64,000 nt of DNA from a virus (lineage: Duplodnaviria; Heunggongvirae; Uroviricota; Caudoviricetes), in IMG/VR virus record IMGVR_UViG_3300049825_000338, positions 20,600 to 84,599 of that record. One strand, 5' to 3'. The translations under genes were made by a program, and so were the position numbers. This document shows positions 7,971 through 43,360 of this stretch, one piece after another. The notes under the pieces were generated by a model. That model searched no databases and was not told the origin of the DNA. It saw nothing but the letters and a program-made list of their open reading frames with translations. Position 1 is the stretch's first letter, and each line of letters begins with the position of its first letter.

Positions 7971-7999
7971 ATTATGCGCCTTCTGAGTAGAAAAGTCAA
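7971..7999 (-). promoter_or_regulatory. sigma-70-type promoter for helicase gene (leaderless)
   Basis: minus strand: TTGACT (7994-7999), 17 nt spacer, CATAAT (7971-7976), then 6 nt, then ATG at 7964. Confidence 0.55.
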
Positions 8000-8044
8000 G
8001 AGGTTGACCAAAGAAATCACGCCAATATCCTCAAACCTCGGGCT

Positions 8045-8230
8045 GCTCAACTAGCGGGCACCTCTAGACGTTTGCAACCGCCTAGCGCCTGGCTACTCGT
8101 GCCGACTGACGTAATGATCCTTCCGCTGTGCTCGTCTGCACACCAGGGTCTGGCCCTACAGCAATGGATTCTAACTCATCCGGCGCAGGATCATTATGTG
8201 ATTGATGGATACTGGCGTGATCTCTCCAGT
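8045..8230 (-). ncRNA. candidate non-coding RNA (~180 nt) transcribed from consensus promoter, no ORF
   Basis: promoter at 8237-8265 points into an interval with no ATG/GTG-initiated ORF >20 codons in any minus frame; predicted long-range 10-bp pairing UAAUGAUCCU/AGGAUCAUUA and local hairpins. Confidence 0.3.
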
Positions 8231-8236
8231 AACTAC

Positions 8237-8265
8237 AGTCTACTCCACCTTGCTCGCTGCGTCAA
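8237..8265 (-). promoter_or_regulatory. sigma-70-type promoter with no downstream ORF
   Basis: minus: TCTTGACG (8260-8265), 17 nt, TAGACT (8237-8242); palindrome GTGACGTACGTCAC 9 bp upstream. Confidence 0.45.
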
Positions 8266-8276
8266 GAGATATCTAT

Positions 8277-8290
8277 GTGACGTACGTCAC
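8277..8290. promoter_or_regulatory. GTGACGTACGTCAC palindromic putative regulator-binding site
   Basis: perfect 14-bp palindrome; same motif recurs at 23866, 29901 and in degenerate form at 21256, always 9 bp upstream of a -35 box. Confidence 0.5.
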
Positions 8291-8553
8291 TTACCTGGCA
8301 TGTAGTGCTTGCCTTTCGCAAGCGTTTTCGCAAGGTTTTTCAGCACGCGAGGGTTATGAGCAGCGCGAGCTTTAAGTACGTTGAGTCGGCCACCCTTACG
8401 CACGCCTATCCGAGAGTTAGAAATAGCCGCAGCCTTCTCTTTAGAGTAACCCTTCGATCTGAGAATATCGTACAGGTACGGCCATTTCAAAGAAGGTGAA
8501 CGCCCGTAGGCATTCACCTTCTTTGCTAACTCAATGGCTGACCGCTCTGGCAT
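8287..8553 (-). CDS. hypothetical basic protein
   Basis: ORF only. Confidence 0.4.
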   Translation of the reverse strand: MPERSAIELAKKVNAYGRSPSLKWPYLYDILRSKGYSKEKAAAISNSRIGVRKGGRLNVLKARAAHNPRVLKNLAKTLAKGKHYMPGK

Positions 8554-8565
8554 GAGACCATCTTA

Positions 8566-9594
8566 TCAGAACGTGATGTACCGTTTGCGCTTTGGTTGCC
8601 CAAACCCAATCGCAAGAGCACCCAGACCAGCCAGCATTGATCCAATTCCGATCATCAACATCATTGAGCTGCCGTCTGATCCTGTCTTAGGAAGTACTGA
8701 TCCGGAGTGAGGGTTTGGTGTGGGAGCTGTAGGAGGAGGCACACCGACTGTCGACACTGGAGGCAGCCCTACATCAACTGTTGTACTTGGTGCGGTGGCT
8801 ACCGTTGTAGTTGGTGCTGGAGCTGTTGATGTTGGGGCCGGGAGCGTGGTTGACGGGGCTGGTGCGGTTGTCGTGGGGGCAGGTGGCTGCGTTGTTGTCG
8901 GAACAGTCGATGTGGGCGGAGTGTCACAGTTTGTGCGTACAACATAATCCATCTCTTGACCGTAGTACATCACGGTGACGGTGTGATCCCCGGAGTTACG
9001 TTCGAAAGTAAAGACTCGCGTCTCGGTGGTGTTGGCAAGAACAACGATGGTGTCATACGTGCTGTCCTTACCATCAATCTCGATCATGAACACGGCGGCT
9101 TCGCCATTTTTTCCATGAGGCACTTCTAGAACGTTTGTAAGCTTTACTACGGCCTTACCGCAAGAAACTTCAACAGAATAGTTGGGATTAGCTGGAACCA
9201 GACTGTCGTCAATTGTTGTAGTTGACTCGTAGTCGTCGTCGTCATCATCAACCGTGGTGTCGGTGCCGTCGTCAGTTGACGGAGGAGTTGACTCGTGACC
9301 GTCGTCGTTACCGTCTGGACTTGTGGTTTCTGACTCTTCATCATCGTTCTCGTCGTTCGATGTTGACGGATAGGTCGGAGGAATGCTGACCGTTACAGGC
9401 GGATAGGTGGCCTCGTCGTCATCGTTCTTGCAGTTATCTTCACCATCGTTCTTGCTAGCGTAGAGACTTTCGCACTTGTCTGACGACTTCGGTGATTCGT
9501 CATTGCCTCTAAAGTTAGCAACCATGGATGACCCGAAGGACAGGGCTGTTGTAGCGACTACTGAGCTAATTACACGTTTGATCATGATGACCAC
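8566..9594 (-). CDS. LPXTG cell-wall-anchored surface protein (sortase substrate)
   Basis: N-terminal signal peptide, acidic D/E-rich region, Thr/Pro-rich region, C-terminal LPKTG followed by a hydrophobic segment and KRKR tail. Confidence 0.7.
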   Translation of the reverse strand: MVIMIKRVISSVVATTALSFGSSMVANFRGNDESPKSSDKCESLYASKNDGEDNCKNDDDEATYPPVTVSIPPTYPSTSNDENDDEESETTSPDGNDDGHESTPPSTDDGTDTTVDDDDDDYESTTTIDDSLVPANPNYSVEVSCGKAVVKLTNVLEVPHGKNGEAAVFMIEIDGKDSTYDTIVVLANTTETRVFTFERNSGDHTVTVMYYGQEMDYVVRTNCDTPPTSTVPTTTQPPAPTTTAPAPSTTLPAPTSTAPAPTTTVATAPSTTVDVGLPPVSTVGVPPPTAPTPNPHSGSVLPKTGSDGSSMMLMIGIGSMLAGLGALAIGFGQPKRKRYITF

Positions 9595-9597
9595 TAT

Positions 9598-9625
9598 ACG
9601 CTAGATTCTCGCTGGACGCAAGCAA
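9598..9625 (-). promoter_or_regulatory. putative promoter of LPXTG gene
   Basis: minus: TTGCTT (9620-9625), 16 nt, TAGCGT (9598-9603); AGAAATTGTAAAG element just upstream, as at the 43.1 kb and 43.3 kb promoters. Confidence 0.35.
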
Positions 9626-9643
9626 CTTTACAATTTCTTGCCA

Positions 9644-10906: not shown

Positions 10907-11565
10907 GATGCTCTCTTTCGTGCAATAGAAATTTCTTTGATCAATTCTTGCAAGCTTAACGGCCCTTCGATCCAGCTGTCAACTCCAACGTGAAATGAAT
11001 TCATATCGTCATGGGCGACTTGGCCGTGAGTGTGCCCGTGTACCAAAACGGTTCCGTCTCTGAAGTCCTCGCGCTTTGGGTACCACTTCGCGATGTCGTA
11101 ACCTCGGTCAGCGTCGTCGTGATCTGGAGTGCCAAACCATGGAAAGTGACTGAAAATGGTGCCCTCCAATTCAGGAGCGATAGTGACACCGGCCATAATT
11201 GTAGGGTGGATGGTGAACGTACCTTCGTACAACTCACGAGCACCTTTAGCTCGTTCGGGATTCTTGTGTTGTGCTGCTGGGTGAACGTTGTCGTGGTTGC
11301 CTGGAATCAAGTGCTTGATTCCGTTCAAGTTCTCAGCCATCCATGGAATCGACACAGACCGAGTACCCATAGCGGCATCGCCCACGATCCAGATGTGGTC
11401 GTCCTTACCGACAACTCTATTCCAGGCTGTTTGCAGCACGGCGTTATGTGTCTCGACAGTGCCATCAAACATAGCTCCCTGACGAAATTTCTCAGCCAGA
11501 TTGGTGTGAAAGAAGTGCGTATCACTCCAGAAAAACGTGTTCATAGGGTTACACTCTACCCGCAA
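10903..11565 (-). CDS. calcineurin-like metallophosphoesterase
   Basis: DTHF, GDAAMG, GNHD, GHTHG motifs. Confidence 0.7.
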   Translation of the reverse strand: MRVECNPMNTFFWSDTHFFHTNLAEKFRQGAMFDGTVETHNAVLQTAWNRVVGKDDHIWIVGDAAMGTRSVSIPWMAENLNGIKHLIPGNHDNVHPAAQHKNPERAKGARELYEGTFTIHPTIMAGVTIAPELEGTIFSHFPWFGTPDHDDADRGYDIAKWYPKREDFRDGTVLVHGHTHGQVAHDDMNSFHVGVDSWIEGPLSLQELIKEISIARKRAS

Positions 11566-11577
11566 AACCTAGATATG

Positions 11578-12357
11578 TCAAGTGCTGTACAGAAACTGAT
11601 TCAACGTAACAATCGTGTCGAGAACCGTGTCAAGAACTCTGGCAGAACTGTGAAGCGTAACGCCCTGGCTTGACTCAGCCAAGCCGGTGCAGTGAAAGCC
11701 GTCTACATTGTAATCTTCGTTCATATGCCAGTGACCATGGACAAGTCGTTCAGGTCTGATTTCGTTTAGGCACTGGCGAATGAGGTTCTGCCCTGCCCTG
11801 CTCCCCTTACGGTGCTGCTCGGGGATTCGACTCTGAAAGTCGTCATGACCGTACTTATGAAGTACCAGGCTTACCGGTGCTTCGTGAGTCAGTAGAATGT
11901 GCGCTCGCTTGCCACGAACAAACTCAAGCGAGCTAGGCGAAACAACCTCTTCATCAAAGTAGGAGTGCCCAAGAGAGCGCATGTCACGATCGATGGAATA
12001 GGCACCACCAATGGCGATTATGTCCGTCTCATTCCAGCGCCATGCGCCGTGACGAGGCACAAACTGTGTGCCTTCGACGTCCACAAACGGACCTTCTTCC
12101 AGAAGATAGCCCGAAAGAGACTTCCAATCTTCGTGATTACCCGGCAACCAGAAAAGTGCTACACCGGTTTTGGACTGCTCTTGCCTGGCTACGGAGAGAA
12201 AACGCTGACCAGCTTCGTTACGTGGCCAATATCCGAAATCGCCCATCTGAAAGATGGCATCAATGCCGCTGTCTTGCGCAACCTTGAATGCCGACAGCAG
12301 AGCATAGGTGTCACAGTGAGTGTCACCTAGAAGGAGTACGAAGCGAGGGTCGGTCAT
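11578..12357 (-). CDS. calcineurin-like metallophosphoesterase
   Basis: LLGDTHCD, MGDFGYWP, GNHEDW, LLTHEAP motifs. Confidence 0.7.
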   Translation of the reverse strand: MTDPRFVLLLGDTHCDTYALLSAFKVAQDSGIDAIFQMGDFGYWPRNEAGQRFLSVARQEQSKTGVALFWLPGNHEDWKSLSGYLLEEGPFVDVEGTQFVPRHGAWRWNETDIIAIGGAYSIDRDMRSLGHSYFDEEVVSPSSLEFVRGKRAHILLTHEAPVSLVLHKYGHDDFQSRIPEQHRKGSRAGQNLIRQCLNEIRPERLVHGHWHMNEDYNVDGFHCTGLAESSQGVTLHSSARVLDTVLDTIVTLNQFLYST

Positions 12358-12371
12358 CAGTCTAGTCTACT

Positions 12372-13016
12372 TTAAACGCTTTGGTTTGTCAACTCACTGA
12401 TGCGAACGGATAGTAGCCAGTCGTTAATGGTGCTGTAGTCAGGAAGTTCGTTTAGGCGGGATGCATAACTAGTCACCTGCTCAAAGAGACTCCGAACCGT
12501 CGAGATATCGGCATTGCGACAAAAGTCAATCTGTGCGTCTGTCAGTGCCGGGGTGATTGTTCCCCAGTAAAGAAGTGACTGTAGCTGTAGTGACAGACGA
12601 GCAGCATGGCGCAACAGCTTGGGATCGTCCTTACCGACGCGTGCGTAGCGGATCAGTTGATTGTTGATGTACCCCTTGTATGCTCTCACAGCTTCATTAC
12701 TCAAAAAACAGTGACGAAGCTCAACTAATTCAACTCCGGTCTTTGTCAGCGTCTCGTGAGACGGCAGCCACAGTACTTCATTGACCGTTGGATTACCTTT
12801 CAAAGCTAGAGCGCAAAATCGGCCTAACTCGTGATACGTTGTGTCAAACGGCTCGTGACTTTGAATACTCACGTTCTTGTCATACTCAATACCAAGAACT
12901 TTTCGCGTCGGCGCAAGCTGAACTTCTATATAATCATAATCGGAGTCGGGTGTCTCTAATCCGTAGGCACGTGAACCCACCAAAGCCTTAAGAATCGTGA
13001 TCATGGTGAAGCGCAA
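12372..13016 (-). CDS. nucleotidyltransferase-fold (Pol beta-like) protein
   Basis: LVGSRAYGLETPDSDYDY matches G[SG]x(9-13)DxD NTase motif. Confidence 0.5.
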   Translation of the reverse strand: MRFTMITILKALVGSRAYGLETPDSDYDYIEVQLAPTRKVLGIEYDKNVSIQSHEPFDTTYHELGRFCALALKGNPTVNEVLWLPSHETLTKTGVELVELRHCFLSNEAVRAYKGYINNQLIRYARVGKDDPKLLRHAARLSLQLQSLLYWGTITPALTDAQIDFCRNADISTVRSLFEQVTSYASRLNELPDYSTINDWLLSVRISELTNQSV

Positions 13017-20472: not shown

Positions 20473-20609
20473 CCCGTCCGGCGAGCGAGCGCCTGCGCTT
20501 CGATGATTGCCTCATCCTTGGAGTCGATCGTGCGGGCATTGAATGTGCGATAAAAGCCGTCACCGCCGTTGTCATCGGTGTAGGTGACAATCTTGATTGT
20601 GTAACTCAT
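20379..20609 (-). CDS. hypothetical small protein, first gene of the GHKL/rsr/NAD-salvage operon
   Basis: consensus leaderless promoter 20616-20644. Confidence 0.5.
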   Translation of the reverse strand: MSYTIKIVTYTDDNGGDGFYRTFNARTIDSKDEAIIEAQALARRTGWCYGVFGPEGKVHDTSPYYAQFNLTEEVTS

Positions 20610-20615
20610 AAGCTA

Positions 20616-20644
20616 AGCTTACTCTTCCTCGTTCAAGATGTCAA
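20616..20644 (-). promoter_or_regulatory. sigma-70-type leaderless promoter
   Basis: minus: TTGACA (20639-20644), 17 nt, TAAGCT (20616-20621), 6 nt, ATG 20609. Confidence 0.55.
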
Positions 20645-20671
20645 GGACTTCTTTGCGCTCAGCAAACATGG

Positions 20672-21208
20672 TCATGATGACGCCATCGTTGCGTGAGCGG
20701 TGCGCCAGGAAGTGATGCGTCGATGGTTGAAAGTCGGAACCATGCTGGCCTTGTGCTTCTTCCAGCCTGTAAACGTGTAGCTCTTGTGCTCGTAGCCTTC
20801 AACCTGAAGATCGGTGCCAATCAGGCTGTCATCCAGGTCTTTCACCTTCAGCGGCCACTTTGAGCGATAGTCCTCAACTTGCTTGCGCCACTCAACGGCG
20901 TACTGGCTACGGCCCTCGATCGACGGGCGCAGATTCCAGATGGAGTCGGGCACATCAAGTTCACCCGGACCCATGACCTCGTCCACAACCTTGACGCTGT
21001 TCCAGGTCTCACCGTACTGCTTGTATGAATGCACGAGACACACGGCGAGGCCTGTGTTCTCTTTGTGCTCGCCGTACTTGAAGATGACCCAGCAGGTCTT
21101 GTAGCCGTTCGACGATGCGCCCCACGAGCGCTTGATGATGTTTTCAGCGCCACCAAACTCTGAATTGATCAGGTCTGAGGCGTTTTGTGGTGATGCGGTC
21201 CAACCCAT
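20672..21208 (-). CDS. hypothetical protein
   Basis: ORF with consensus leaderless promoter. Confidence 0.5.
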   Translation of the reverse strand: MGWTASPQNASDLINSEFGGAENIIKRSWGASSNGYKTCWVIFKYGEHKENTGLAVCLVHSYKQYGETWNSVKVVDEVMGPGELDVPDSIWNLRPSIEGRSQYAVEWRKQVEDYRSKWPLKVKDLDDSLIGTDLQVEGYEHKSYTFTGWKKHKASMVPTFNHRRITSWRTAHATMASS

Positions 21209-21214
21209 GAGTTA

Positions 21215-21243
21215 AGTATGCGCCTTTGTTAGAGGAAAGTCAA
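21215..21243 (-). promoter_or_regulatory. sigma-70-type leaderless promoter with upstream palindrome-like site
   Basis: minus: TTGACT (21238-21243), 17 nt, CATACT (21215-21220), 6 nt, ATG 21208; TGACCTACGTCAC at 21256-21268. Confidence 0.55.
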
Positions 21244-21295
21244 GAAGTTTGTGTATGACCTACGTCACACCTCGTGCTTACAACATTTGAACATA

Positions 21296-22774: not shown

Positions 22775-23053
22775 TCATGGACGCACGCCCATCACTTCAG
22801 CTGCGGACAACAACTCCCAACGGATAGCGTCAAACGAGACCACCACGGTATTGGTCTTGCCGCGAGCCTCGTTGGCTGCTGTATTGCACGCAGGAAACGA
22901 CTGGCCCCACTCGCTGTAGTCCACAAAGAACTCGGCAGTTGCGCCGCAGCGAGCATTCTCGTGCAGGCCTCCGTGATTCAGGACGCACTTTGCCTGCCCT
23001 GTGATGGCTGTGATCAGGAGAGCGGTCTTGTTGAGCGACTCGTTGTTGTTCAT
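22775..23053 (-). CDS. hypothetical protein
   Basis: consensus leaderless promoter 23060-23088. Confidence 0.5.
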   Translation of the reverse strand: MNNNESLNKTALLITAITGQAKCVLNHGGLHENARCGATAEFFVDYSEWGQSFPACNTAANEARGKTNTVVVSFDAIRWELLSAAEVMGVRP

Positions 23054-23059
23054 GAGGTA

Positions 23060-23088
23060 AGCTTACTCCAGTTGTGTGAGAGTGTCAA
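23060..23088 (-). promoter_or_regulatory. sigma-70-type leaderless promoter
   Basis: minus: TTGACA (23083-23088), 17 nt, TAAGCT (23060-23065), 6 nt, ATG. Confidence 0.55.
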
Positions 23089-23456
23089 GAAGAATCTTTG
23101 ATCCAATTACCAAACAGTTCCATTTCTTCGTCATTACGCAACACACCTAGCTTGCGAAGACGGAAAAATTGTTCGTGTGAAAGAAACGAGGCAGCCGTCT
23201 CAAACGTTTGGCCGTCATAATCTGGGTAATATCCTCCAACGGTGCATGACAGGTCTTGATTGCAGTTGTAGTCGAACTCATCGTTGACGAAGGCCTCAAT
23301 CAGTGGTCGCATGGCCGTAAAGTCGCAGGAGCGCACCATATCGTGCGCTTCATGCAGCCCAAGATTCGTTACCTCCCGTAGGTACTTGATTGCCAGAACG
23401 CGTTGGCCGTGAATTGTCTCCTCAATGATCGCCAGCAAATGCTCAGCGGCAGTCAT
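23085..23456 (-). CDS. protein with ribosomal L7/L12 C-terminal-like segment
   Basis: LAIKYLREVTNLGLHEAHDMVRS resembles L7/L12 CTD ([22 protein letters not shown]). Confidence 0.4.
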   Translation of the reverse strand: MTAAEHLLAIIEETIHGQRVLAIKYLREVTNLGLHEAHDMVRSCDFTAMRPLIEAFVNDEFDYNCNQDLSCTVGGYYPDYDGQTFETAASFLSHEQFFRLRKLGVLRNDEEMELFGNWIKDSS

Positions 23457-23677
23457 CAGTCAGCGTCCAAAGCCGTGAGAAACTGAACCTCGGCCATCGT
23501 CAGATGGCGCTGTGCAGCTTCTAAATGCTCAGCGTTGCCGGTGCTCTGGAACCTCCACACGGATGTCATGGCAGAAACGGCGCTGCGCTCAGCGTCAGGA
23601 TTACCAACCCTCAAGGAAGCGAGACGGTAGGTGCGTGCGTCACGCTCAAGCTTTGCTGCGGTCTGTGTAATGTTCAT
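23456..23677 (-). CDS. hypothetical protein
   Basis: consensus leaderless promoter 23684-23712. Confidence 0.5.
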   Translation of the reverse strand: MNITQTAAKLERDARTYRLASLRVGNPDAERSAVSAMTSVWRFQSTGNAEHLEAAQRHLTMAEVQFLTALDAD

Positions 23678-23680
23678 GGC

Positions 23681-23818
23681 CTAAGTATGCGCCTTCTCTG
23701 AGAGGATGTCAAGAGATTTCTTTGACATCTGGATGCGAGCAGTCACAGCGTCTGTAGACGGATGGCTCCAAACATCAAGTTGGGCGGTTCTTGGGGGAAG
23801 AGTAGGGACGTAACTCAT
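23681..23818 (-). CDS. possible 45-aa micro-ORF (not in ORF track)
   Basis: ATG 7 nt after the TATGAT of promoter 23826-23854. Confidence 0.3.
   Translation of the reverse strand: MSYVPTLPPRTAQLDVWSHPSTDAVTARIQMSKKSLDILSEKAHT
23684..23712 (-). promoter_or_regulatory. sigma-70-type leaderless promoter inside an inverted repeat
   Basis: minus: TTGACA (23707-23712), 17 nt, CATACT (23684-23689); -35 lies in the inverted repeat ATGTCAAGAGA / TCTTTGACAT. Confidence 0.55.
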
Positions 23819-23825
23819 AAAGACA

Positions 23826-23854
23826 ATCATAAGCTTTGTGCAAGCAACTGTCAA
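23826..23854 (-). promoter_or_regulatory. sigma-70-type promoter with upstream palindrome
   Basis: minus: TCTTGACA (23849-23854), 17 nt, TATGAT (23826-23831); GTGACGTTCGTCAC at 23866-23879. Confidence 0.5.
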
Positions 23855-23875
23855 GAGGCGAGTATGTGACGTTCG

Positions 23876-26005: not shown

Positions 26006-26084
26006 TCACTACTCTACCACACTTCTGTAACAATTGTAACATTCAGAGGAGAAGACTTACTTCGGCTATACTTAAAGGAGTCAA

Positions 26085-27107: not shown

Positions 27108-27771
27108 CCATCTTGCGCATCTTTGTGATAGCGCCGTCGTATTTACGACGAACCATCTCTCCGGTTATCTGCATCTGTGCTCCGATGTCTTTGAAGATCA
27201 TACCGGACGAACGCATACTGACAACCAGACGCTCTTCAGGAGTAAGATGCTTGAGCAATGGTGAAAGCGTGGACTTGAAAGATGTGTCGCTAGAAATAGA
27301 ATCACTTTCGTCGTCGACAGAGCCAAATATAGTGTAAGGCATCCTCTCCAACGATCGACTAGAACGAAGTGACGCAAGAGTTCTGATAGCCTCTGACGGG
27401 TTATCGTCGTACTTCATTTCGTGATTGACTCTAGCGTTCAACTCGTCGCCCAGAATGATGTTGGCCGTTTTACGAATAGCCTCCTGAATCTCGTTGCGAA
27501 CCCAGATCGAAGCATACGTCGAGAACTTGATTCCACGAGACGGATCAAAACCCTCAATAGCTCTAATCAGACCAATAACCGCAGCCTGCTCCATATCCTC
27601 ACCGTGTTTGCTGTACAGAGCGTGCTTACGCGCCCAGCTGATTGCTAGCTTATGGTTGTGCAGCACAAGCGTGTCACGAATCGATCGATCGCGTGTGGTG
27701 TAAAACTCCTTGAGCAGACGCTCCTGATCTGCAAGCGCCAAAACATCTCGTGCCTTTACCATGATCGCCAT
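27073..27771 (-). CDS. RNA polymerase sigma factor (sigma-70 family, SigB/F-like)
   Basis: region 2 (FSTYASIWVRNEI), region 4 HTH (LTPEERLVVSMRSSG...IGAQMQITGEMVRRKYDGAITKMRK). Confidence 0.75.
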   Translation of the reverse strand: MAIMVKARDVLALADQERLLKEFYTTRDRSIRDTLVLHNHKLAISWARKHALYSKHGEDMEQAAVIGLIRAIEGFDPSRGIKFSTYASIWVRNEIQEAIRKTANIILGDELNARVNHEMKYDDNPSEAIRTLASLRSSRSLERMPYTIFGSVDDESDSISSDTSFKSTLSPLLKHLTPEERLVVSMRSSGMIFKDIGAQMQITGEMVRRKYDGAITKMRKMVDYMGTENPLD

Positions 27772-29142: not shown

Positions 29143-29571
29143 TTACCGCACCCAGTAAACGTAGCGGCCGAGACGAATCGCTGTGTAGTTATCCTTAAAC
29201 AGCTGATCAGCCGCCTCGGCCCAGTCGATAGTTGAGAACGGCCAAACGCTGAAGTCGGTATCGTGAATTTCTTCAGCCATGTCGCGGGCGTAGATAGCTG
29301 TATACCGGTCGTTGATCAGTGTTGCACCGTACTCCCAGTCGTCGCTGTACTGCGCCGCTTCCTCAGCGAATGCTTGCAGTTCGCTCAAGGACTGAACGCT
29401 GTCTTGATCAGCCTCGTCACTATCGAGCCATTCACTGTAGCTCATCGGAACAATGTACGACTTAGTAAGGCGAGTATCGTAATCAACATACTCACTACGA
29501 AAATCGGCCTCAAGTGAGTCGATCTCTTCGATGATTTCTCTGCTGTCGATGGTGTCTTGGTTCCAGTTCAT
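29143..29571 (-). CDS. hypothetical acidic protein
   Basis: consensus leaderless promoter 29578-29606. Confidence 0.5.
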   Translation of the reverse strand: MNWNQDTIDSREIIEEIDSLEADFRSEYVDYDTRLTKSYIVPMSYSEWLDSDEADQDSVQSLSELQAFAEEAAQYSDDWEYGATLINDRYTAIYARDMAEEIHDTDFSVWPFSTIDWAEAADQLFKDNYTAIRLGRYVYWVR

Positions 29572-29577
29572 GATGTA

Positions 29578-29606
29578 AGCGTAGTCCTTTGCGTCGAGAA
29601 TGTCAA
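29578..29606 (-). promoter_or_regulatory. sigma-70-type leaderless promoter
   Basis: minus: TCTTGACA (29601-29606), 17 nt, TACGCT (29578-29583), 6 nt, ATG 29571. Confidence 0.5.
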
Positions 29607-29859: not shown

Positions 29860-29942
29860 ACTGTAGTCCTACTGACCAACAAAGTCAAGCAGAACATGAC
29901 GTGACGTGCGTCACTTGACAAGTGACATAAAGAGAGTAAGAT
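29860..29942. promoter_or_regulatory. divergent promoter pair flanking a central GTGACGTGCGTCAC palindrome
   Basis: plus: TTGACA (29915-29920), 16 nt, TAAGAT (29937-29942), 6 nt, ATG 29949. Minus: TTGACT (29883-29888), 17 nt, TACAGT (29860-29865). Palindrome 29901-29914 between them. Confidence 0.5.
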
Positions 29943-29948
29943 GATCTC

Positions 29949-30224
29949 ATGAAAGACCTCTCCTACAAGCAAATCTCCGACACCTGCGCATGGTTTGCGG
30001 CGAACGCCACCAATACCAGCGCCATGTCATGCGTACGAGACGCCTTCAACTGCCTTCGCAGCATCGACCACGGACACTACTTCCCGTTCTACCAGGACGT
30101 AGCCGAGGGTCTGCCGCAGTCATGGACGCAATCCGCTGCCGCATGGCTGGTCAAGGCCGCACAGCACGAGTTTGGCTTCAACGTTCCCGAAGCTCTGAAC
30201 TATCTCAGGCCGGTGACACCGTAA
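29949..30224 (+). CDS. hypothetical protein, lone plus-strand gene driven by divergent leaderless promoter
   Basis: promoter as above. Confidence 0.5.
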   Translation: MKDLSYKQISDTCAWFAANATNTSAMSCVRDAFNCLRSIDHGHYFPFYQDVAEGLPQSWTQSAAAWLVKAAQHEFGFNVPEALNYLRPVTP

Positions 30225-36109: not shown

Positions 36110-36381
36110 TCCTTAATCTCCTCTTCAGTAGCAATGTACATGGTCTGACGACCTTTGCCGTTGTCGGGACTGACAAACATTCGGGCGAACCTGCTTGCAA
36201 AGCTTGCTTTCAGCGCCTCGCCCTTAGCTCGCTGCTCGTCAGTAAGTGCAGCAAATGCCTCCTGCGCCCTAACCTTTGCCCAACGAGCCGCCGCCATGGA
36301 TGTAGCAACAACATCCTTAGACTCTCGCGCCTTCTCAAGCGCAAGAATCGCAAGAGCTTCGTCGTTGCTGATCAAGGTCAT
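36091..36381 (-). CDS. hypothetical protein
   Basis: ORF only. Confidence 0.35.
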   Translation of the reverse strand: MTLISNDEALAILALEKARESKDVVATSMAAARWAKVRAQEAFAALTDEQRAKGEALKASFASRFARMFVSPDNGKGRQTMYIATEEEIKEWNQSH

Positions 36382-36599
36382 GGCTATATCCTACTTGCTC
36401 AGTCAAGGAATGTCAACAACTAACTTCTACAACTCTGTGAAGTACTCGATAGAGACTAGTTTGTTGTCCACAATCTCAAGTATTGGATCAAACTCTTCTT
36501 GACCACAAAAGATGAGCGGCTCGGCCGTCCCCAGAATGTCTGAACCCTCCCACAGAGCCGACATGATCTCTTCAGTTGTGACCTCAATCGTGCGCTTTC

Positions 36600-36905: not shown

Positions 36906-36908
36906 GAC

Positions 36909-39919: not shown

Positions 39920-40114
39920 TCATGACGGGTTAAGGACCATCGGGAAGTGCATGTCGAGAGTCTGCTGACGACGCAGCATCTCTTCCTGAGCCAGTACTGT
40001 GAAGACATGCCACGCCTGCTTGCGCTCACTGTCACGAGCAGCCTCGGCCTCAAACTCGAAACGTGCCTCGGCAAGCTCGGTGAGCAGAAGGTCAAGAGTA
40101 AGTGTGCGGTTCAT
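39920..40114 (-). CDS. hypothetical protein
   Basis: consensus leaderless promoter 40121-40149. Confidence 0.5.
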   Translation of the reverse strand: MNRTLTLDLLLTELAEARFEFEAEAARDSERKQAWHVFTVLAQEEMLRRQQTLDMHFPMVLNPS

Positions 40115-40120
40115 GAGGTA

Positions 40121-40149
40121 ATCTTACTCCTTGTTGGCTCAGATGTCAA
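40121..40149 (-). promoter_or_regulatory. sigma-70-type leaderless promoter
   Basis: minus: TTGACA (40144-40149), 17 nt, TAAGAT (40121-40126), 6 nt, ATG 40114; CAAAGAAA element upstream. Confidence 0.55.
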
Positions 40150-40828
40150 GGCGTTTCTTTGAAACTTCTACAGCAGACGAGGACACGTCAATACCTACGA
40201 ACCTCCGCCCATGCTTCAGCGCAGCAGCGCCAGTAGAGCCGGACCCACAAAACGGATCAAGCACCAAGTCACCTGGTAGTGTGTGTGCCAGCACAAACGG
40301 CTCGATAATTTCAATCGGTTTCTGATTAGGGTACCCGACCCTATCAGGATGTGTGTTCGACATCGTGAAATCCCACACTGAGCCAGAAGGCTTATCCTCT
40401 GAATACCCAGGCTTAGGCGCAAGACGCTTGGCTCTCGGTACGGCGCTACCGTCAAACAATCCGGACTCTTCGGTTTTTGTGAACGTCAACAGATTGTTGT
40501 GGCGCACCGGCCACCATGACGTGCGCGGCCGACCCAGCCCAAACTCCCAGATTATTTCGCCCCGGTACGTCCACCAACAATCCTGCATGAATGATGTAAG
40601 GTCAGTAGCCAAACGATAATCACAGCATACAACGATTGTGCCATTCTCGTTCATTGCTGGAAGACACGCCTTAAGTACGTTCAGCACGTATGACGTGTCA
40701 AACGGATCATAGAATTCGTTGTCGCCCTGCTTCTGTACCTTGCCAGTGCCGTACGGCGGATCGGTCCACAACAGTCTGACGTCTGACAAGTCCTTAACTG
40801 CTTCCAGAGCGTCACCCAAAATAATCAT
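40139..40828 (-). CDS. DNA methyltransferase (beta-class N6-adenine/N4-cytosine; DPPY type)
   Basis: WTDPPY (motif IV) near N-terminus, LDPFCGSGSTG (motif I) near C-terminus. Confidence 0.8.
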   Translation of the reverse strand: MIILGDALEAVKDLSDVRLLWTDPPYGTGKVQKQGDNEFYDPFDTSYVLNVLKACLPAMNENGTIVVCCDYRLATDLTSFMQDCWWTYRGEIIWEFGLGRPRTSWWPVRHNNLLTFTKTEESGLFDGSAVPRAKRLAPKPGYSEDKPSGSVWDFTMSNTHPDRVGYPNQKPIEIIEPFVLAHTLPGDLVLDPFCGSGSTGAAALKHGRRFVGIDVSSSAVEVSKKRLDI

Positions 40829-41694: not shown

Positions 41695-41929
41695 GTGGGG
41701 ATGGCAGGCACTACTGCCGTGGGGAGATCACCACTTCAAAGAAGGTGTCTACTCGGCAGCAAGAGCCGTGCGATTCCGTAGTCCTAAGCACGGATGGTTC
41801 GCAACCGGCATAAACGTGCCAGAAGCTGGACGCATACACTGGGGGCCGTTTGGCAAAGTGCGGGCAGTGATTGACTGTGTTCGGCTTGTGCGGAAAGCTA
41901 ACCGTGATCGCCCGTCTTGGGTTAATTGA
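41666..41929 (+). CDS. hypothetical protein
   Basis: ORF only. Confidence 0.3.
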   Translation: MRACPKMRTKWGWQALLPWGDHHFKEGVYSAARAVRFRSPKHGWFATGINVPEAGRIHWGPFGKVRAVIDCVRLVRKANRDRPSWVN

Positions 41930-41930
41930 C

Positions 41931-42422
41931 TCAGAGTACGGGTTGAACAGACTCCAGAAAACCGACGTAAACGATCGATCGGCCACGAGTCCACGAGCAC
42001 TGCAACACGATGCGCCGAGCCGCTGGATCAAGGCCATAGATAAGTTCAGCGGGCGGGTCTTGAGACGTCACGGTTCTGGTGGCAATACGATACGTGAACA
42101 CCTGGTCATAGGAATTGATGTTCACCGTTTGCCCAGCACGGAGACGTGGGAGCTTACGGAACGGAGCACCGTGACTCGAACGATGACCGGCCAGCCAGAC
42201 AGTACCGACCTCGCCAGGAGCCACAGCCGGTGACCAGCCGTCAAACAAGGTGACGCTACCAGCATCAATTGATTCCTGGTCACCTACGTAGATGTCAGCG
42301 CCGAATCGAAGCGACGGAATCTCCAAGTACCAGTCGGTGGTATTTGAAGAAGCGGAAGCCGGAATGCTTGTAGCTATCGGTAACAGGATTACAGCCAGAA
42401 AGACACACAAAGCTTTCATCAC
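41931..42422 (-). CDS. sortase-family transpeptidase
   Basis: signal peptide; VWLAGHRSS (His), RIVLQCSW (Cys), TRGRSIVYVG (Arg) in SrtA-like order. Confidence 0.6.
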   Translation of the reverse strand: MMKALCVFLAVILLPIATSIPASASSNTTDWYLEIPSLRFGADIYVGDQESIDAGSVTLFDGWSPAVAPGEVGTVWLAGHRSSHGAPFRKLPRLRAGQTVNINSYDQVFTYRIATRTVTSQDPPAELIYGLDPAARRIVLQCSWTRGRSIVYVGFLESVQPVL

Positions 42423-42573
42423 TCAGTTTCTCCGTATTCAACCTTGCCGCCGAACACGGCGAGGGCGTAGTTGACCTGTTCCCAGATAGACGCAGAATGC
42501 GGGGTGTTGATCAACTCGCGTAGCTCGTCTTCAGTCAGGAAGATTGGAAACGTGACGTCTTCTTCATTGAGGT

Positions 42574-42783
42574 TCATAGCATGTCTTCTTTCAGTAGGGT
42601 GTCTAACAGGATAACAACTTGGCGTGCACTAGCCGTCTTGACGGTTGCTGAGCATTCTTGACAGCCAATAAAGAACACGACACTGACGTCGTGCAGATCA
42701 GAAAGACCGCCAGCAGGAATAGAGGTGCCTAGGGTGTAATCCCAAGACAGATCGTCAGAGCCGCAATCAGGGCATGTGATCAT
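42574..42783 (-). CDS. Zn-ribbon small protein
   Basis: CPDC ... CQEC. Confidence 0.4.
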   Translation of the reverse strand: MITCPDCGSDDLSWDYTLGTSIPAGGLSDLHDVSVVFFIGCQECSATVKTASARQVVILLDTLLKEDML

Positions 42784-42937
42784 GACAGACCTAACGCCTT
42801 GCGCAGTCGCTCAAGCTGATCGCCATCCATTGACTTGGCAAGCTCGATCAGCATCTCACCCGTCAACGTCACCTCCGGACATGGAAAGATGTGTGGTGAT
42901 ACGTCAAGGTCTACATGCGCATAGGACTTGGGCATGC

Positions 42938-43114
42938 TCATGACATACCCGACCGGACAAAGAAGCGGTCACGGTCGAAGTGAGAGTCAGCGCACAAAAG
43001 AGCGGACGCCACGTACTCAACCGCCCGGTCAAACGATGGTGCGTGTGAATCCTCTCCATCCTCACGGGCGAACCAGAAACCGTCAGCAATGGCGTCGTAG
43101 GTGTCTTGTGTCAT
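42938..43114 (-). CDS. hypothetical 58-aa protein (track ORF trimmed to ATG 43114)
   Basis: leaderless promoter 43122-43150; the track start is a TTG that is the first half of the -35 hexamer. Confidence 0.4.
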   Translation of the reverse strand: MTQDTYDAIADGFWFAREDGEDSHAPSFDRAVEYVASALLCADSHFDRDRFFVRSGMS

Positions 43115-43121
43115 GAACAAC

Positions 43122-43150
43122 ATCTTACCAGACTCAGCCAGCCGTGTCAA
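43122..43150 (-). promoter_or_regulatory. sigma-70-type leaderless promoter
   Basis: minus: TTGACA (43145-43150), 17 nt, TAAGAT (43122-43127), 7 nt, ATG; AGAAATTGTATAAA element upstream. Confidence 0.55.
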
Positions 43151-43175
43151 GTGGTTTATACAATTTCTTCGGAAT

Positions 43176-43325
43176 TCAGGGTCGGCTCACGAACGGCCCG
43201 TACGCCTGTACCAACTCAAAGAAGCCGCTCTTCAGAAGAGAATCTCTTGTTCTGAGAGCCTTTACCTGCTCCTTTGTCAAAATCTCTGCTTCAACAGTCT
43301 CAGCTTTGAGAATCTCTGTGGTCAT
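43176..43325 (-). CDS. 49-aa micro-ORF not in track
   Basis: promoter 43332-43360 (TTGACA, 17 nt, TATACT, 6 nt, ATG); ORF MTTEILKAETVEAEILTKEQVKALRTRDSLLKSGFFELVQAYGPFVSRP. Confidence 0.4.
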   Translation of the reverse strand: MTTEILKAETVEAEILTKEQVKALRTRDSLLKSGFFELVQAYGPFVSRP

Positions 43326-43331
43326 GCCTCC

Positions 43332-43360
43332 AGTATACCACCACCTACTGAAGTTGTCAA
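43332..43360 (-). promoter_or_regulatory. sigma-70-type leaderless promoter
   Basis: as above; AGAAATTGTACAAA element upstream. Confidence 0.55.

What the first reader, a model, noticed from the sequence alone, without database searches (positions are those of the whole stretch)
7971..43360. A family of at least 13 near-identical promoters positioned for leaderless translation
Thirteen minus-strand genes, and one plus-strand gene at 29949, are preceded by TTGAC[AT], a 17 nt spacer, a TA-rich -10 (CATAAT, TAAGAT, TAAGCT, TATACT...), 6-7 nt, then ATG. The transcript would start on or within a few nt of the start codon. No Shine-Dalgarno is present for these genes, whereas the plus-strand membrane gene at 26085 has a strong AAAGGAG. 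Many of these promoters carry AAAGAAA or AGAAATTGTA elements at about -45 to -55. This points to early transcription by the host primary sigma factor in a host that routinely uses leaderless mRNAs, as actinobacteria do. It also re-times several ORF-track starts, which were called at upstream TTG/ATG codons overlapping the -35 box.
Basis: seen in the sequence. Interest (0 to 1): 0.55.

Follow-up and report, generated by a model that had tools for sequence, protein, structure and literature searches.

The report
Leaderless host-type promoter family in actinophage
An uncultivated phage, probably of an actinobacterial host, carries about 16 copies of a near-consensus host-type promoter placed so that transcription should start on the A of the ATG; it is a very clean example of a design already predicted in other actinobacteriophages.

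Summary
The composite TTGACW-N17-YANNNT-N6-ATG occurs 11 times against 0.01 expected. A degenerate member sits at 9621, and two members have no ATG at the leaderless position (8265, 29888).

Ten related metagenomic phage segments (GC 56-66%) carry the same cassette. Pooled, 66 of 94 strict -35/-10 pairs have their first ATG 6-8 nt after the -10, 54 of them at exactly 6 nt. Independent gene calls in five relatives start on those ATGs (25 ATG, 1 GTG) and rarely have a Shine-Dalgarno.

The cassette also occurs in Cluster J mycobacteriophages such as Omega. A phage sugar transferase is closest to Acidimicrobiia (Actinomycetota) genes.

Best reading: host primary-sigma promoters that make leaderless mRNAs for the early and replication-gene region. 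Start sites, timing and sigma identity are inferred, not shown.

One complication is that the phage encodes its own primary-like sigma factor.

Predicted leaderless SigA-like promoters are already published for Cluster O and K mycobacteriophages, so this is a new member of a known kind.

Side findings: CRP-type palindromes at two helically phased positions, and a structured non-coding element.

The parts
4791..4828 (-). Family promoter plus leaderless ATG (4793) of the DUF6011 gene 4317-4793: TTGACA-N17-CATAAT-gacctc-ATG.
   Evidence: The TGA stop of upstream ORF 4825-5175 lies inside the -35 box.
7962..7999 (-). Family promoter plus ATG (7964) of the Rad3-type helicase 6369-7964: TTGACT-N17-CATAAT-atctct-ATG.
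   Evidence: The orthologous helicase start has the same cassette in L001, L004, L005, L006, L088, L090 and L091.
8237..8265 (-). Family-type promoter with no ATG at the leaderless position: TTGACG-N17-TAGACT. The CRP-type palindrome GTGACGTACGTCAC (8277-8290) lies 11 nt upstream of the -35.
8000..8231 (-). About 230 nt without an ORF, between promoter 8265 and the helicase promoter. It folds with a 24-bp terminal stem.
   Evidence: MFE -98.9 kcal/mol, z -5.4; no Rfam match. Relatives carry a conserved non-coding core at the same place.
9583..9638 (-). Degenerate member: AGAAATTGTA (9629-9638), TTGCGT (9616-9621), N17, TATAGT (9593-9598), N7, ATG (9585) of the 339-aa ORF.
11542..11581 (-). Family promoter plus ATG (11544) of the phosphoesterase gene: TTGACA-N17-TAGAGT-N8-ATG.
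12355..12392 (-). Family promoter plus ATG (12357) of the metallophosphoesterase gene 11578-12357: TTGACA-N17-TAGACT-N6-ATG.
20607..20655 (-). CAAAGAAGTCC, then TTGACA-N17-TAAGCT-N6-ATG (20609), 76-aa ORF.
   Evidence: (repeat family D2)
21206..21268 (-). Degenerate palindrome GTGACGTAGGTCAT (21255-21268), 11 nt, then TTGACT-N17-CATACT-N6-ATG (21208), 178-aa ORF.
   Evidence: D4, D6
23051..23100 (-). CAAAGATTCTTC, then TTGACA-N17-TAAGCT-N6-ATG (23053), 92-aa ORF.
23675..23724 (-). CAAAGAAATCTC, then TTGACA-N17-CATACT-N6-ATG (23677), 73-aa ORF.
23816..23879 (-). Palindrome GTGACGAACGTCAC (23866-23879), 11 nt, then TTGACA-N17-TATGAT-N7-ATG (23818), 45-aa ORF.
29569..29606 (-). TTGACA-N17-TACGCT-N6-ATG (29571). 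First gene of a co-directional run (29143-29571, 28437-29141, 28207-28440, 27756-28214) that leads into the phage sigma gene 27073-27771.
29860..29914 (-). Palindrome GTGACGCACGTCAC (29901-29914), 12 nt, then TTGACT-N17-TACAGT. No ATG at the leaderless position. The next ~250 nt (29607-29853) hold a possible 44-aa ORF behind a weak SD and a 21-bp terminal stem.
29901..29951 (+). Divergent plus-strand member. The same palindrome abuts the -35: TTGACA-N16-TAAGAT-N6-ATG (29949), 91-aa ORF.
36379..36416 (-). TTGACA-N17-TAGGAT-N6-ATG (36381), 96-aa ORF.
40112..40161 (-). CAAAGAAACGCC, then TTGACA-N17-TAAGAT-N6-ATG (40114), 64-aa ORF.
43112..43168 (-). AGAAATTGTA (43159-43168), then TTGACA-N17-TAAGAT-N7-ATG (43114), 58-aa ORF.
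43323..43381 (-). AGAAATTGTA (43372-43381), then TTGACA-N17-TATACT-N6-ATG (43325), 49-aa ORF.
27073..27771 (-). Phage-encoded sigma-70-family factor, 232 aa, with regions 2 and 4. A possible alternative reader of part of the family.

Best explanation
These are about 16 copies of a roughly 50-bp promoter cassette read by the host RNA polymerase carrying its primary (SigA/HrdB-type) sigma factor.

Each cassette has three parts. First, an optional upstream element: an A-rich CAAAGAAA block at about -47 to -40, an AGAAATTGTA block, or a CRP-type palindrome. Second, a consensus -35 (TTGACA), a 17-bp spacer ending in a purine-rich stretch with G at -13, and a -10 of the form (T/C)ANNNT. Third, exactly 6 nt (rarely 7-8) and then ATG.

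Because transcription from such promoters normally begins 7 nt after the last base of the -10, the A of the ATG would be the first transcribed base. The mRNA would then have no 5' leader and no Shine-Dalgarno. It would be translated by the leaderless route that is common in Actinomycetota.

The cassettes punctuate one long co-directional block, about one per 2.6 kb between 4.8 and 43.4 kb. That block holds small unknown genes plus nucleotide-metabolism, RNA-repair and replication genes. The cassettes therefore most likely drive early or delayed-early expression, including expression of the phage's own sigma factor gene.

Shown: the sequence architecture, its statistical excess, its conservation in relatives, and the ATG-only, SD-poor starts. 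Inferred: the start site, the sigma identity, the timing and the host.
For: - Excess over chance. The strict composite occurs 11 times against 0.01 expected. A PWM finds 17 sites against about 1.1 in shuffles. The repeat finder recovers the family on its own as D2, D4 and D6.
- Fixed distance to the start codon. Across the window and 10 relatives (258 kb), 66 of 94 strict -35/-10 pairs have their first ATG 6-8 nt after the -10, and 54 of them at exactly 6 nt.
- Independent gene calls. In five relatives with called genes (L001, L004-L007), the calls start on those ATGs: 25 ATG and 1 GTG, against 96 ATG and 40 GTG for other genes. An SD-like motif at -16 to -5 occurs in 3 of 26 against 63 of 136.
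- Within the window. Promoter-led starts are 14 of 14 ATG on the minus strand, while longest-ORF starts of other genes are 42 ATG, 24 GTG and 9 TTG. Strong SDs exist elsewhere in the window.
- Orthologous conservation. The helicase and DUF6011 genes keep their own cassette in phages that share only 42-59% helicase identity and have GC of 56-66% against 51% here.
- Cultivated phages. The cassette occurs in Cluster J phages of M. smegmatis; the annotated starts of Omega gp229 and gp221 sit 6 nt after such -10 boxes.
- Host. The best cellular relatives of the phage sugar transferase are all Acidimicrobiia or other Actinomycetota MAGs. Their loci show a TANNNT peak 6-8 nt upstream of ORF starts: 11 counts against about 0.4 per other offset.
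- Precedent. Cluster O mycobacteriophages have 8-9 SigA-like promoters, several predicted to be leaderless (PMC4351075). About 14% of mycobacterial genes are leaderless (PMC7148126).
- Bootstrapping. The phage sigma gene lies downstream of a family promoter (29606), so at least that member must be read by host holoenzyme unless the sigma protein is injected with the DNA.
Against: - No transcript 5' ends are available, and the host is uncultivated and unknown.
- The -10 is CATAMT, with C rather than T at -12, in 4 of 15 window sites and in 39 of 66 pooled sites. G at -13 is present in 97% of the 47 pooled sites that have a 17-nt spacer and a 6-nt gap. That is more specific than a generic SigA consensus requires.
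- The phage encodes a primary-like sigma whose residues at the sigma70 positions that read -12 are changed.
- No terminators separate the units, so read-through polycistronic mRNAs are also likely. On those, the ATGs would need another initiation mode.
- The spacer motif AAGGAG/AAGGCG, 12-14 nt upstream of the ATG, is SD-like.
- Two family members (8265, 29888) have no ATG at the leaderless position, so the cassette is not strictly tied to leaderless genes.
Confidence: 0.75

Rival explanations
1. Part or all of the family, above all the GGCG-CATAMT subclass in front of the helicase, DUF6011 and two small genes, is read by the phage-encoded primary-like sigma factor (27073-27771) and not by host SigA. 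That subclass would then be a middle class, and only the TANNNT members would be truly early and host-dependent.
For: - The phage sigma has regions 2 and 4, and its region 2 is closest to group 1/2 sigmas such as RpoS, SigA, RpoD and HrdB.
- At the sigma70 positions Q437, T440 and R441 it has N, Q and E. The ortholog in L091 has H, Q and E. From memory, sigma70 Q437H and T440I change specificity at -12 towards C (Waldburger et al. 1990); I did not check this here.
- C at -12 with G at -13 is the commonest form of the family.
- E585 and R588 equivalents in region 4.2 are kept, so recognition of a TTGAC-like -35 is conceivable.
Against: - The sigma ortholog was detected only in the window's contig and in L091. 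It was not detected in the long (97-119 kb) contigs of L002, L004, L005 and L006, of which L004-L006 carry several CATACT/CATAAT cassettes. This is weak evidence, because the search is word-limited and was swamped by cellular sigmas.
- Omega has the GGCG-CATAAT-AGAGAC-ATG form, and no sigma factor is annotated in the 50 kb of it that I read.
- In L091 the sigma gene itself lies behind a CATAAT promoter, which would need bootstrapping.
- A consensus TTGACA with a 17-bp spacer is the host primary-sigma signature.
Confidence: 0.12
2. The cassettes are real promoters, but the proteins are made mainly from read-through polycistronic mRNAs. The purine-rich spacer (AGAAGGCG / AAGGAG) would act as a distant Shine-Dalgarno, or ribosomes would reinitiate after the upstream stop. 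The fixed -10 to ATG distance would then be a by-product of the cassette having spread as one unit.
For: - There are no convincing terminators between units.
- In four sites (4828, 11581, 23088, 43360) the upstream gene's TGA stop lies inside the -35 box, giving 31-33 nt intergenic gaps.
- The spacer motif matches up to 7 nt of the anti-SD complement (AGAAAGG) across relatives.
- dG with the anti-SD reaches -7.8 kcal/mol at 40114.
Against: - The SD-like motif ends 12-14 nt from the ATG, beyond the usual 5-10 nt.
- Several members have no such motif (12392, 23854, 36416, 43150).
- The start is ATG in 40 of 41 promoter-led genes.
- The ATG distance is kept at 6 nt even where the 6 nt themselves differ between phages: tacctc here, ggtgac in L004, agagac in L088. 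That points to selection on the distance itself.
- This reading is compatible with the leaderless reading and does not replace it.
Confidence: 0.08
3. The repeats are non-functional copies of a short duplicated or mobile DNA segment that merely resembles a promoter.
For: Members share sequence beyond the two hexamers, in the flank of the -35, the spacer ends and the discriminator.
Against: - All members point the same way as the gene that follows, and each abuts an ORF start.
- No terminal repeats or target duplications were seen.
- Orthologous positions are kept across phages that have diverged to 42-59% protein identity, while the non-hexamer positions drift.
- Only the functional positions (TTGAC, A-11, T-7, ATG) are invariant.
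Confidence: 0.03

Closest known systems
SigA-like promoters with predicted leaderless transcripts in Cluster O mycobacteriophages (Corndog and relatives; PMC4351075)
   Same: Several strongly predicted -35/-10 promoters per genome. [quoted passage not shown] They include divergent pairs and sites inside long co-directional gene blocks. The host is an actinobacterium. All of this is bioinformatic prediction.
   Different: - Here there are about twice as many copies in 39 kb.
- The copies resemble each other well beyond the hexamers.
- The cassette is conserved across a whole uncultivated clade.
- The palindrome associated with it is a CRP-type GTGA-N6-TCAC at fixed positions relative to the -35. 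Cluster O's 17-bp TGTTCGGNNNCCGAACA repeat is mostly not at promoters.
Extended start-associated sequences (ESAS) of Cluster K mycobacteriophages (Adephagia; PMC11373665)
   Same: Seven intergenic copies of a 46-47-bp conserved unit that contains SigA-like -35 and -10 hexamers 17-18 bp apart plus an inverted repeat thought to bind a regulator.
   Different: ESAS units are followed by a start-associated sequence and a leader. Only a separate Adephagia promoter (P90) is predicted to be leaderless. Here the unit ends on the start codon itself.
Cluster J mycobacteriophages (Omega gp229 and gp221 upstream regions)
   Same: Almost the same cassette. Omega has TTGACA-N13-GGCG-CATAAT-AGAGAC-ATG at the annotated gp229 start and TTGACA-N17-TAGACT-N6-ATG at gp221. 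Several IMG/VR hits of about 106-111 kb are probably also Cluster J genomes; that is judged from their lengths, and only Omega was verified.
   Different: Only 2-3 such sites in the 50 kb of Omega that I read, not a dense family. The Cluster J paper does not mention promoters (PMC3706429). There is no detectable DNA similarity to the window.
Leaderless genes of Actinomycetota (Mycobacterium, Corynebacterium, Streptomyces)
   Same: A TANNNT -10 lies 6-7 nt upstream of a start codon that is also +1, with no SD. About 14% of mycobacterial genes are of this kind (PMC7148126). The Acidimicrobiia loci fetched here show the same signal.
   Different: Host leaderless genes usually have weak -35 boxes and use GTG as well as ATG (7 of the 11 Acidimicrobiia candidates). 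The phage family has consensus -35 boxes and ATG only.
Lambda PRM / cI, and leaderless transcripts of Thermus phages (phiYS40, P23-45)
   Same: Phage genes expressed from mRNAs that begin at the start codon. This comparison is from my own knowledge and was not checked here.
   Different: Lambda has one regulated leaderless gene. As I recall them, the Thermus phage leaderless transcripts belong to middle and late classes with different promoter motifs. Here the promoters are a host-consensus family.

Membership tests
Bacterial primary-sigma (sigma70/SigA) promoter | -35 hexamer close to TTGACA and -10 hexamer with A at -11 and T at -7, separated by 16-18 bp | tested here: met
   All 15 sites have TTGAC(A/T). 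The spacer is 17 bp in 14 sites and 16 bp in one. The -10 is (T/C)ANNNT. In the 47 pooled sites with a 17-nt spacer and a 6-nt gap, TTGAC, A-11 and T-7 are 100% conserved.
Bacterial primary-sigma (sigma70/SigA) promoter | More frequent than chance, and oriented with the downstream gene | tested here: met
   11 against 0.01 expected and 17 against 1.1. Every site faces the ORF that follows it.
Bacterial primary-sigma (sigma70/SigA) promoter | T at -12 (canonical TANNNT) | tested here: inconclusive
   T in 11 of 15 window sites, but C in 4. C is the majority form in relatives: CATAAT or CATACT in 39 of 66.
Bacterial primary-sigma (sigma70/SigA) promoter | Transcription initiates there with host holoenzyme | not testable with these tools
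   No transcriptome data, and the host is uncultivated.
Leaderless mRNA gene (actinobacterial type) | -10 hexamer ends 6-7 nt before the start codon, so that +1 is the first base of the codon | tested here: met
   6 nt in 11 of 15, 7 nt in 3 and 8 nt in 1. Pooled: 54 at 6 nt, 7 at 7 nt and 5 at 8 nt, out of 94 pairs.
Leaderless mRNA gene (actinobacterial type) | Start codon AUG or GUG, with no SD at a working distance | tested here: met
   15 of 15 ATG. Relatives: 25 ATG and 1 GTG. SD-like motif at -16 to -5 in 3 of 26 against 63 of 136 for other genes. Caveat: there is an SD-like purine run 12-14 nt upstream, inside the promoter spacer.
Leaderless mRNA gene (actinobacterial type) | Host lineage translates leaderless mRNAs routinely | tested here: inconclusive
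   The host is inferred only. Sugar-transferase relatives are all Acidimicrobiia or other Actinomycetota. Those loci show a positional TANNNT peak, 11 counts at 6-8 nt against about 0.4 per other offset. The cassette is also present in M. smegmatis phages.
Leaderless mRNA gene (actinobacterial type) | Mapped 5' end coincides with the start codon | not testable with these tools
   Needs dRNA-seq, Cappable-seq or 5' RACE.
Repeated SigA-like promoter cassettes of actinobacteriophages (Cluster O PL/PR, Cluster K ESAS) | Several intergenic copies per genome of a conserved unit that holds both hexamers, often with a dyad-symmetric element | tested here: met
   15-18 copies in the window. Similarity extends beyond the hexamers. 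The palindrome GTGAC-N4-GTCAC is attached to 4-5 of them. Literature comparison.
CRP/FNR-type operator (tGTGA-N6-TCACa) | Palindrome that matches the consensus core | tested here: met
   GTGACG-NN-CGTCAC equals GTGA-N6-TCAC. 29901-29914 matches the Rhodococcus CRP motif GTGANNTGNGTCAC exactly (PMC5327559).
CRP/FNR-type operator (tGTGA-N6-TCACa) | Fixed position relative to the promoter core | tested here: met
   All 3 exact copies in the window, and 5 of 6, 8 of 9, 2 of 2 and 1 of 1 in L001, L004, L005 and L006, lie 0-2 nt or 11-12 nt upstream of a TTGAC box.
CRP/FNR-type operator (tGTGA-N6-TCACa) | Bound by a CRP-family protein | not testable with these tools
   No binding data. The binder could equally be a phage protein.
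UP element (alpha-CTD site) | A/T-rich block at about -40 to -60 that raises promoter strength | tested here: inconclusive
   CAAAGA(A/T) at about -47 to -40 in 4 window sites. An AAGAA-type block within 16 nt upstream of the -35 in 15 of 66 pooled sites, as A(A/G)GAAA(T/C)C in L006, L088, L090 and L091. Position and composition fit; activity is untested.

The most novel reading that the evidence does not exclude
The cassette may be more than a host promoter. It could be a composite switch shared by a clade of large uncultivated actinophages.

- A CRP-type palindrome, at two helically phased positions (abutting the -35, or one turn further upstream), or an AAGAAA block, would tune initiation.
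- The unusual, nearly invariant G-13 / C-12 version of the -10 would be read preferentially by the phage's own primary-like sigma factor. Its residues at the positions that read -12 in sigma70 are N or H, and Q, in place of Q437 and T440.
- One leaderless design would then serve two temporal classes.
- The same promoters would also drive a conserved structured non-coding RNA upstream of the helicase gene, in a phage that encodes Ro60.
Probability: 0.15. Interest if true: 0.65.

Novelty: new member of a known kind. Interest (0 to 1): 0.38.

Why it matters
- Annotation. It fixes the starts of at least 15 genes. It removes spurious upstream TTG/ATG starts and the ORF 7847-8050. It also gives a simple rule (TTGAC-N17-YANNNT-N6-ATG) that could correct starts across this uncultivated clade and in Cluster J phages.
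- Biology. It suggests that large phages of Acidimicrobiia or other Actinomycetota split their early region into many short, strongly promoted leaderless units, which ribosomes could translate without an SD. It provides a ready set of compact, apparently strong promoter-plus-start cassettes that could be tested as expression parts in actinobacteria.
- Side findings. A phased CRP-type operator, a primary-like phage sigma with altered -12-reading residues, and a conserved non-coding element behind the same promoter type are each testable leads on how such phages time their genes.

Tried and rejected
- Near-identity DNA search of 20-44 kb against INPHARED phages: no match. A distant search gave only a 164-nt, 68% match to Cluster C mycobacteriophages.
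- IMG/VR and GTDB genome scans with the helicase: no relatives, so there is no prophage or binned copy to name the host.
- The exact helicase protein is not on record in the contig index, so the window's own gene calls and source sample could not be retrieved.
- The generic sigma-70 and terminator scan is not informative: promoters 21 against 16.2 expected, and the terminator-like hits are weak and not placed between units.
- Extending the family to -10-only sites. About 15 further ORF starts have YANNNT 5-8 nt upstream (for example 8553, 38857, 2999, 26005, 52038). That number is what chance predicts, so I do not count them.
- tRNA scan and Rfam scans (whole window at gathering threshold; 7950-8300 and L004 9760-10010 at E up to 10): nothing real.
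- Y-RNA idea for the structured region behind promoter 8265, prompted by the phage's Ro60: no Rfam support. The four-sequence alignment gives only 9 predicted pairs, 3 of them with compensatory changes. Left open.
- tblastn of the small promoter-led proteins, including the divergent 91-aa protein at 29949, against relatives L001-L007: one marginal hit only. Pfam/PHROGs scans of ten promoter-led proteins gave no DNA-binding domain. No candidate binder of the palindrome emerged.
- Using absence of the sigma in relatives as a decisive argument. Rejected as decisive, because the first single-sequence search missed the 37%-identical L091 ortholog.
- Literature search for leaderless translation in Acidimicrobiia: nothing specific.

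Full report
**Setting.** The window has about 51% GC. Genes run on the minus strand from 1 to about 51.9 kb and on the plus strand from 52 kb onward. It is a phage. It encodes a Rad3-type helicase (6369-7964), PrimPol, DUF927 primase, family A DNA polymerase, RNA ligase, RlaP, NAMPT, a Ro60/TROVE protein, ClpP, a DNA methylase, cell-wall hydrolases and a sigma factor. It has no near DNA match among 50,697 deposited phages. The best protein matches are to actinobacteriophages: polymerase about 32% to Microbacterium, Gordonia and 'Actinomycetia' phages, and a 68% DNA patch to Cluster C mycobacteriophages.

**Observation.**
- Within 7971-43360, thirteen minus-strand sites and the plus-strand site at 29915 have TTGAC(A/T), a 17-nt spacer (16 at 29915), a (T/C)ANNNT -10, then 6 nt (11 sites), 7 nt (2) or 8 nt (1), then an ATG that opens an ORF of 45-531 codons.
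- A fifteenth site at 4828, in front of the DUF6011 gene, lies just outside the stated range.
- The strict composite TTGACW-N17-YANNNT-N6-ATG occurs 11 times against 0.01 expected from dinucleotide shuffles.
- A PWM trained on the sites, and therefore somewhat circular, finds 17 sites of at least 14 bits against about 1.1 in shuffles.
- A generic promoter scan (21 against 16.2) and the -10 plus ATG alone (26 against 19.9) are not above chance. The roughly 15 extra ORF starts with only a -10-like hexamer should therefore not be counted.
- The repeat finder recovers the family on its own as D2, D4 and D6.

**Further members.**
- A degenerate member: AGAAATTGTA, TTGCGT-N17-TATAGT-N7-ATG (9585).
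- Two members without an ATG at the leaderless position: 8265(-) and 29888(-).

**Upstream elements.** CAAAGA(A/T) sits 4-5 nt upstream of the -35 at 20644, 23088, 23712 and 40149. The 10-mer AGAAATTGTA occurs three times in the window, always 7-11 nt upstream of a -35. By my arithmetic, about 0.1 copies of a given 10-mer are expected in 128 kb of both strands.

**Relatives.** The helicase has 22 homologs at 42-59% identity in metagenome assemblies, on contigs of up to 120 kb. I fetched ten of the surrounding segments; their GC is 56-66%. They carry the same cassette, often in a purer form. L004 has eight copies of GTGACGNNCGTCAC-G-TTGACA-N17-CATACT-GGTGAC-ATG in 21.5 kb. L088 has twelve family sites. 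L090 and L091 have seven each, of the form AAGAAATC.C-TTGACA-N17(..GAAAGGCG)-CATAAT-N6-ATG.
- The orthologous helicase and DUF6011 genes keep their own cassette in most relatives.
- Pooled over 258 kb, 94 strict -35/-10 pairs exist. The first downstream ATG lies exactly 6 nt after the -10 in 54, 7 nt in 7 and 8 nt in 5. By my arithmetic, about 5% would do so by chance.
- Among the 47 sites with a 17-nt spacer and a 6-nt gap, only TTGAC, A-11, T-7 and the ATG are invariant. G-13 is at 97%.
- The six bases between the -10 and the ATG differ between phages (tacctc here, ggtgac in L004, agagac in L088) while their number stays the same. That points to selection on the distance.

**Translation signals.** In five relatives (L001, L004-L007) the genes were called independently of me. 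Promoter-led genes start with ATG in 25 of 26 cases, against 96 ATG and 40 GTG for the rest. They have an SD-like tetramer at -16 to -5 in 3 of 26, against 63 of 136. In the window all 15 promoter-led starts are ATG, and strong SDs occur elsewhere: GAGGAGG before 5175, TAGGAGG before 34208, AAAGGAG before 39759 and before the plus-strand gene at 26085.

One caveat applies. The spacer ends in a purine run (AAGGAG, AGAAGGCG) 12-14 nt before the ATG. It matches part of the anti-SD complement. It would not be in a transcript that starts at the ATG, but it would be in read-through transcripts, and no convincing terminators separate the units.

**Mechanism.** For sigma70/SigA promoters the start site normally lies 7 nt after the last base of the -10; this is established knowledge. 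Six intervening bases therefore put the A of the ATG at +1. The mRNA has no leader, which is the form that Actinomycetota translate well. About 14% of mycobacterial genes are leaderless (PMC7148126).

The cassettes are confined to the block of small unknown genes and nucleotide, RNA-repair and replication genes (4.8-43.4 kb). In the relatives they stop before the terminase region. I infer an early or delayed-early class. The phage sigma gene lies four genes downstream of promoter 29606, which fits a cascade started by the host.

**Host.** The helicase clade is absent from 185,579 species genomes. The phage sugar transferase (34208-34789) has its closest cellular relatives (51-59% identity, all 80 loci kept) in Acidimicrobiia and other Actinomycetota MAGs: Ilumatobacteraceae, Microthrixaceae and Acidimicrobiaceae. 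In those 198 kb of MAG DNA, TANNNT peaks 6-8 nt upstream of the first start of long ORFs, with 11 counts against about 0.4 per other offset. The candidates include pairs with near-identical upstream regions in different MAGs. An actinobacterial host that uses leaderless mRNAs is therefore plausible but not proven.

**Cultivated phages.** A scan of IMG/VR for TTGACW-N13-RGCG-CATAMT-N6-ATG found 77 stretches. One of them is Mycobacterium phage Omega at 100% identity. Several other hits of about 106-111 kb are probably Cluster J genomes too, judged from their lengths. In Omega the annotated starts of gp229 (TTGACA-N13-GGCG-CATAAT-AGAGAC-ATG) and gp221 sit 6 nt after such -10 boxes. The Cluster J paper does not mention promoters.

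**What is known.** Cluster O mycobacteriophages were reported to have 8-9 SigA-like promoters, several predicted to give leaderless mRNAs (PMC4351075). Cluster K phages have seven copies of a 46-47-bp SigA-like promoter unit with an inverted repeat (ESAS; PMC11373665). The finding is therefore a clean, dense and well-conserved new member of a known kind.

**Complication: a phage sigma.** The gene 27073-27771 encodes a 232-aa sigma with regions 2 and 4. Its region 2 is closest to RpoS, SigA and RpoD. Aligned to sigma70 it keeps Y430 and W434 but has N, Q and E at Q437, T440 and R441. Its only detected ortholog, in L091 at 37% identity, has H, Q and E.

Those positions read the -12 base pair. 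From memory, Q437H and T440I shift the preference towards C at -12. The commonest -10 of the family is CATAMT, with C at -12. I therefore keep as a rival that this sigma reads that subclass.

Three points count against it. Relatives rich in CATACT show no detectable ortholog, although search sensitivity is limited. Omega has the same form. A consensus TTGACA with a 17-bp spacer is the host signature.

**Side finding 1: a CRP-type palindrome.** GTGAC-N4-GTCAC equals GTGA-N6-TCAC, and 29901-29914 matches the Rhodococcus CRP motif GTGANNTGNGTCAC (PMC5327559). It occurs three times exactly in the window (8277, 23866, 29901) and once with a mismatch (21255). All exact copies here and 16 of 18 in the relatives lie upstream of a TTGAC box, at either 0-2 nt or 11-12 nt, which is one helical turn apart. 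This looks like a regulator site. The binder, whether host CRP or a phage protein, is unknown.

**Side finding 2: structured non-coding stretches.** The two members with no ATG at the leaderless position, both with the palindrome 11-12 nt upstream of the -35, precede stretches of about 230-250 nt that fold with long terminal stems.
- 8000-8231: z -5.4, with a 24-bp terminal stem whose 3' arm overlaps the region upstream of the helicase promoter's -35.
- 29607-29853: z -2.6.

At the same place, upstream of the helicase promoter and behind a family-type promoter, relatives L001, L004, L005 and L006 share a conserved core: CUGACC..GCCGCUGG..CAAACGGAGAUAACCGGCCCUGC. There is no Rfam match and only weak covariation support from four sequences. 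Its nature, whether RNA or a DNA site such as an origin, is open.

**Verdict.** Novelty: new member of a known kind. Interest is moderate.

Noticed in passing
window 8277-8290, 23866-23879, 29901-29914 (exact), 21255-21268 (1 mismatch); L001, L004, L005, L006: The CRP/FNR-type palindrome GTGACGNNCGTCAC is almost always placed 0-2 nt or 11-12 nt upstream of a TTGAC -35 box, two classes one helical turn apart. At 29901-29914 it sits between divergent promoters. The binder is unknown.
   Followed up: partly
window 8000-8231 (-) and 29607-29853 (-); L004 9778-9965, L005 9369-9534, L006 9804-9965, L001 about 9613-9705: Stretches without a leaderless ATG, behind family-type promoters, fold with long terminal stems (z -5.4 and -2.6). 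Relatives share a conserved core (..GCCGCUGG..CAAACGGAGAUAACCGGCCCUGC..) upstream of the helicase promoter. No Rfam family matches. The phage encodes Ro60, so a Y-RNA-like partner is conceivable but unsupported.
   Followed up: partly
window 27073-27771 (-); L091 12908-13609: Phage-encoded sigma factor whose region 2 is closest to primary or primary-like sigmas. It has N (H in L091), Q and E at the sigma70 positions Q437, T440 and R441. An ortholog was detected in only one relative.
   Followed up: partly
window 58034-58477 (+): A 147-aa protein with a weak Sigma70_r2 match (E 3.5e-4, below the Pfam cut-off), possibly a second small sigma-like factor in the plus-strand replication block.
   Followed up: no
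window 34208-34789 (-); L008-L087: A phage sugar transferase (Bac_transf) whose 80 kept cellular relatives (51-59% identity) are all Acidimicrobiia or other Actinomycetota MAGs. This is the best clue to the host.
   Followed up: partly
window 9644-10906, 12372-13016, 13750-15213, 16083-17612 (-): An RNA-repair and NAD-salvage set: RNA ligase, RlaP, NAMPT and a Ro60/TROVE protein with a vWA domain. Relatives carry related genes (T4-type RNA ligase, PolyA_pol, NAMPT).
   Followed up: no
window 45874-48653: Five copies of a 46-nt repeat, 560-830 nt apart, inside the large minus-strand ORFs 45451-46620 and 46799-48658. The latter has a PemK/MazF-like domain. Probably a repeated peptide motif, not a regulatory element.
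   Followed up: no
window 51796-51822 (-): A tandem ATGTAACTT x3 (third copy ATGTAACTG) in an AT-rich gap next to the point where gene orientation switches (51.8-52.0 kb). Possibly an origin or a regulatory site.
   Followed up: no
window 26006-26084: The divergent region between the minus-strand NlpC/P60 gene and plus-strand gene 26085 contains TGTTACA-AT-TGTTACA on the minus strand. It shares the ATTGT core with AGAAATTGTA. A weak leaderless-like arrangement (GTTACA-N18-TAGAGT-N5-ATG) precedes 26005.
   Followed up: no
window 4825-4828, 11578-11581, 23085-23088, 43357-43360: In four cassettes the TGA stop of the upstream ORF is the T-TGA-CA inside the -35 hexamer, which gives 31-33 nt intergenic gaps.
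   Followed up: yes
L169 (Mycobacterium phage Omega, NC_004688.1) locus coordinates 47440-47475 and 45274-45309 (-): Cluster J mycobacteriophages carry the same cassette at the annotated starts of gp229 and gp221. The Cluster J paper does not discuss promoters.
   Followed up: partly
window 24898-25572, 41931-42422, 31511-32464, 55203-55916: Unusual auxiliary genes for a phage: a PP2C/SpoIIE-like phosphatase, a sortase, a Band 7/SPFH protein and ClpP. The pooled Pfam scan also hit DUF3039, NifU-like and RF-1-domain proteins, which I did not locate.
   Followed up: no
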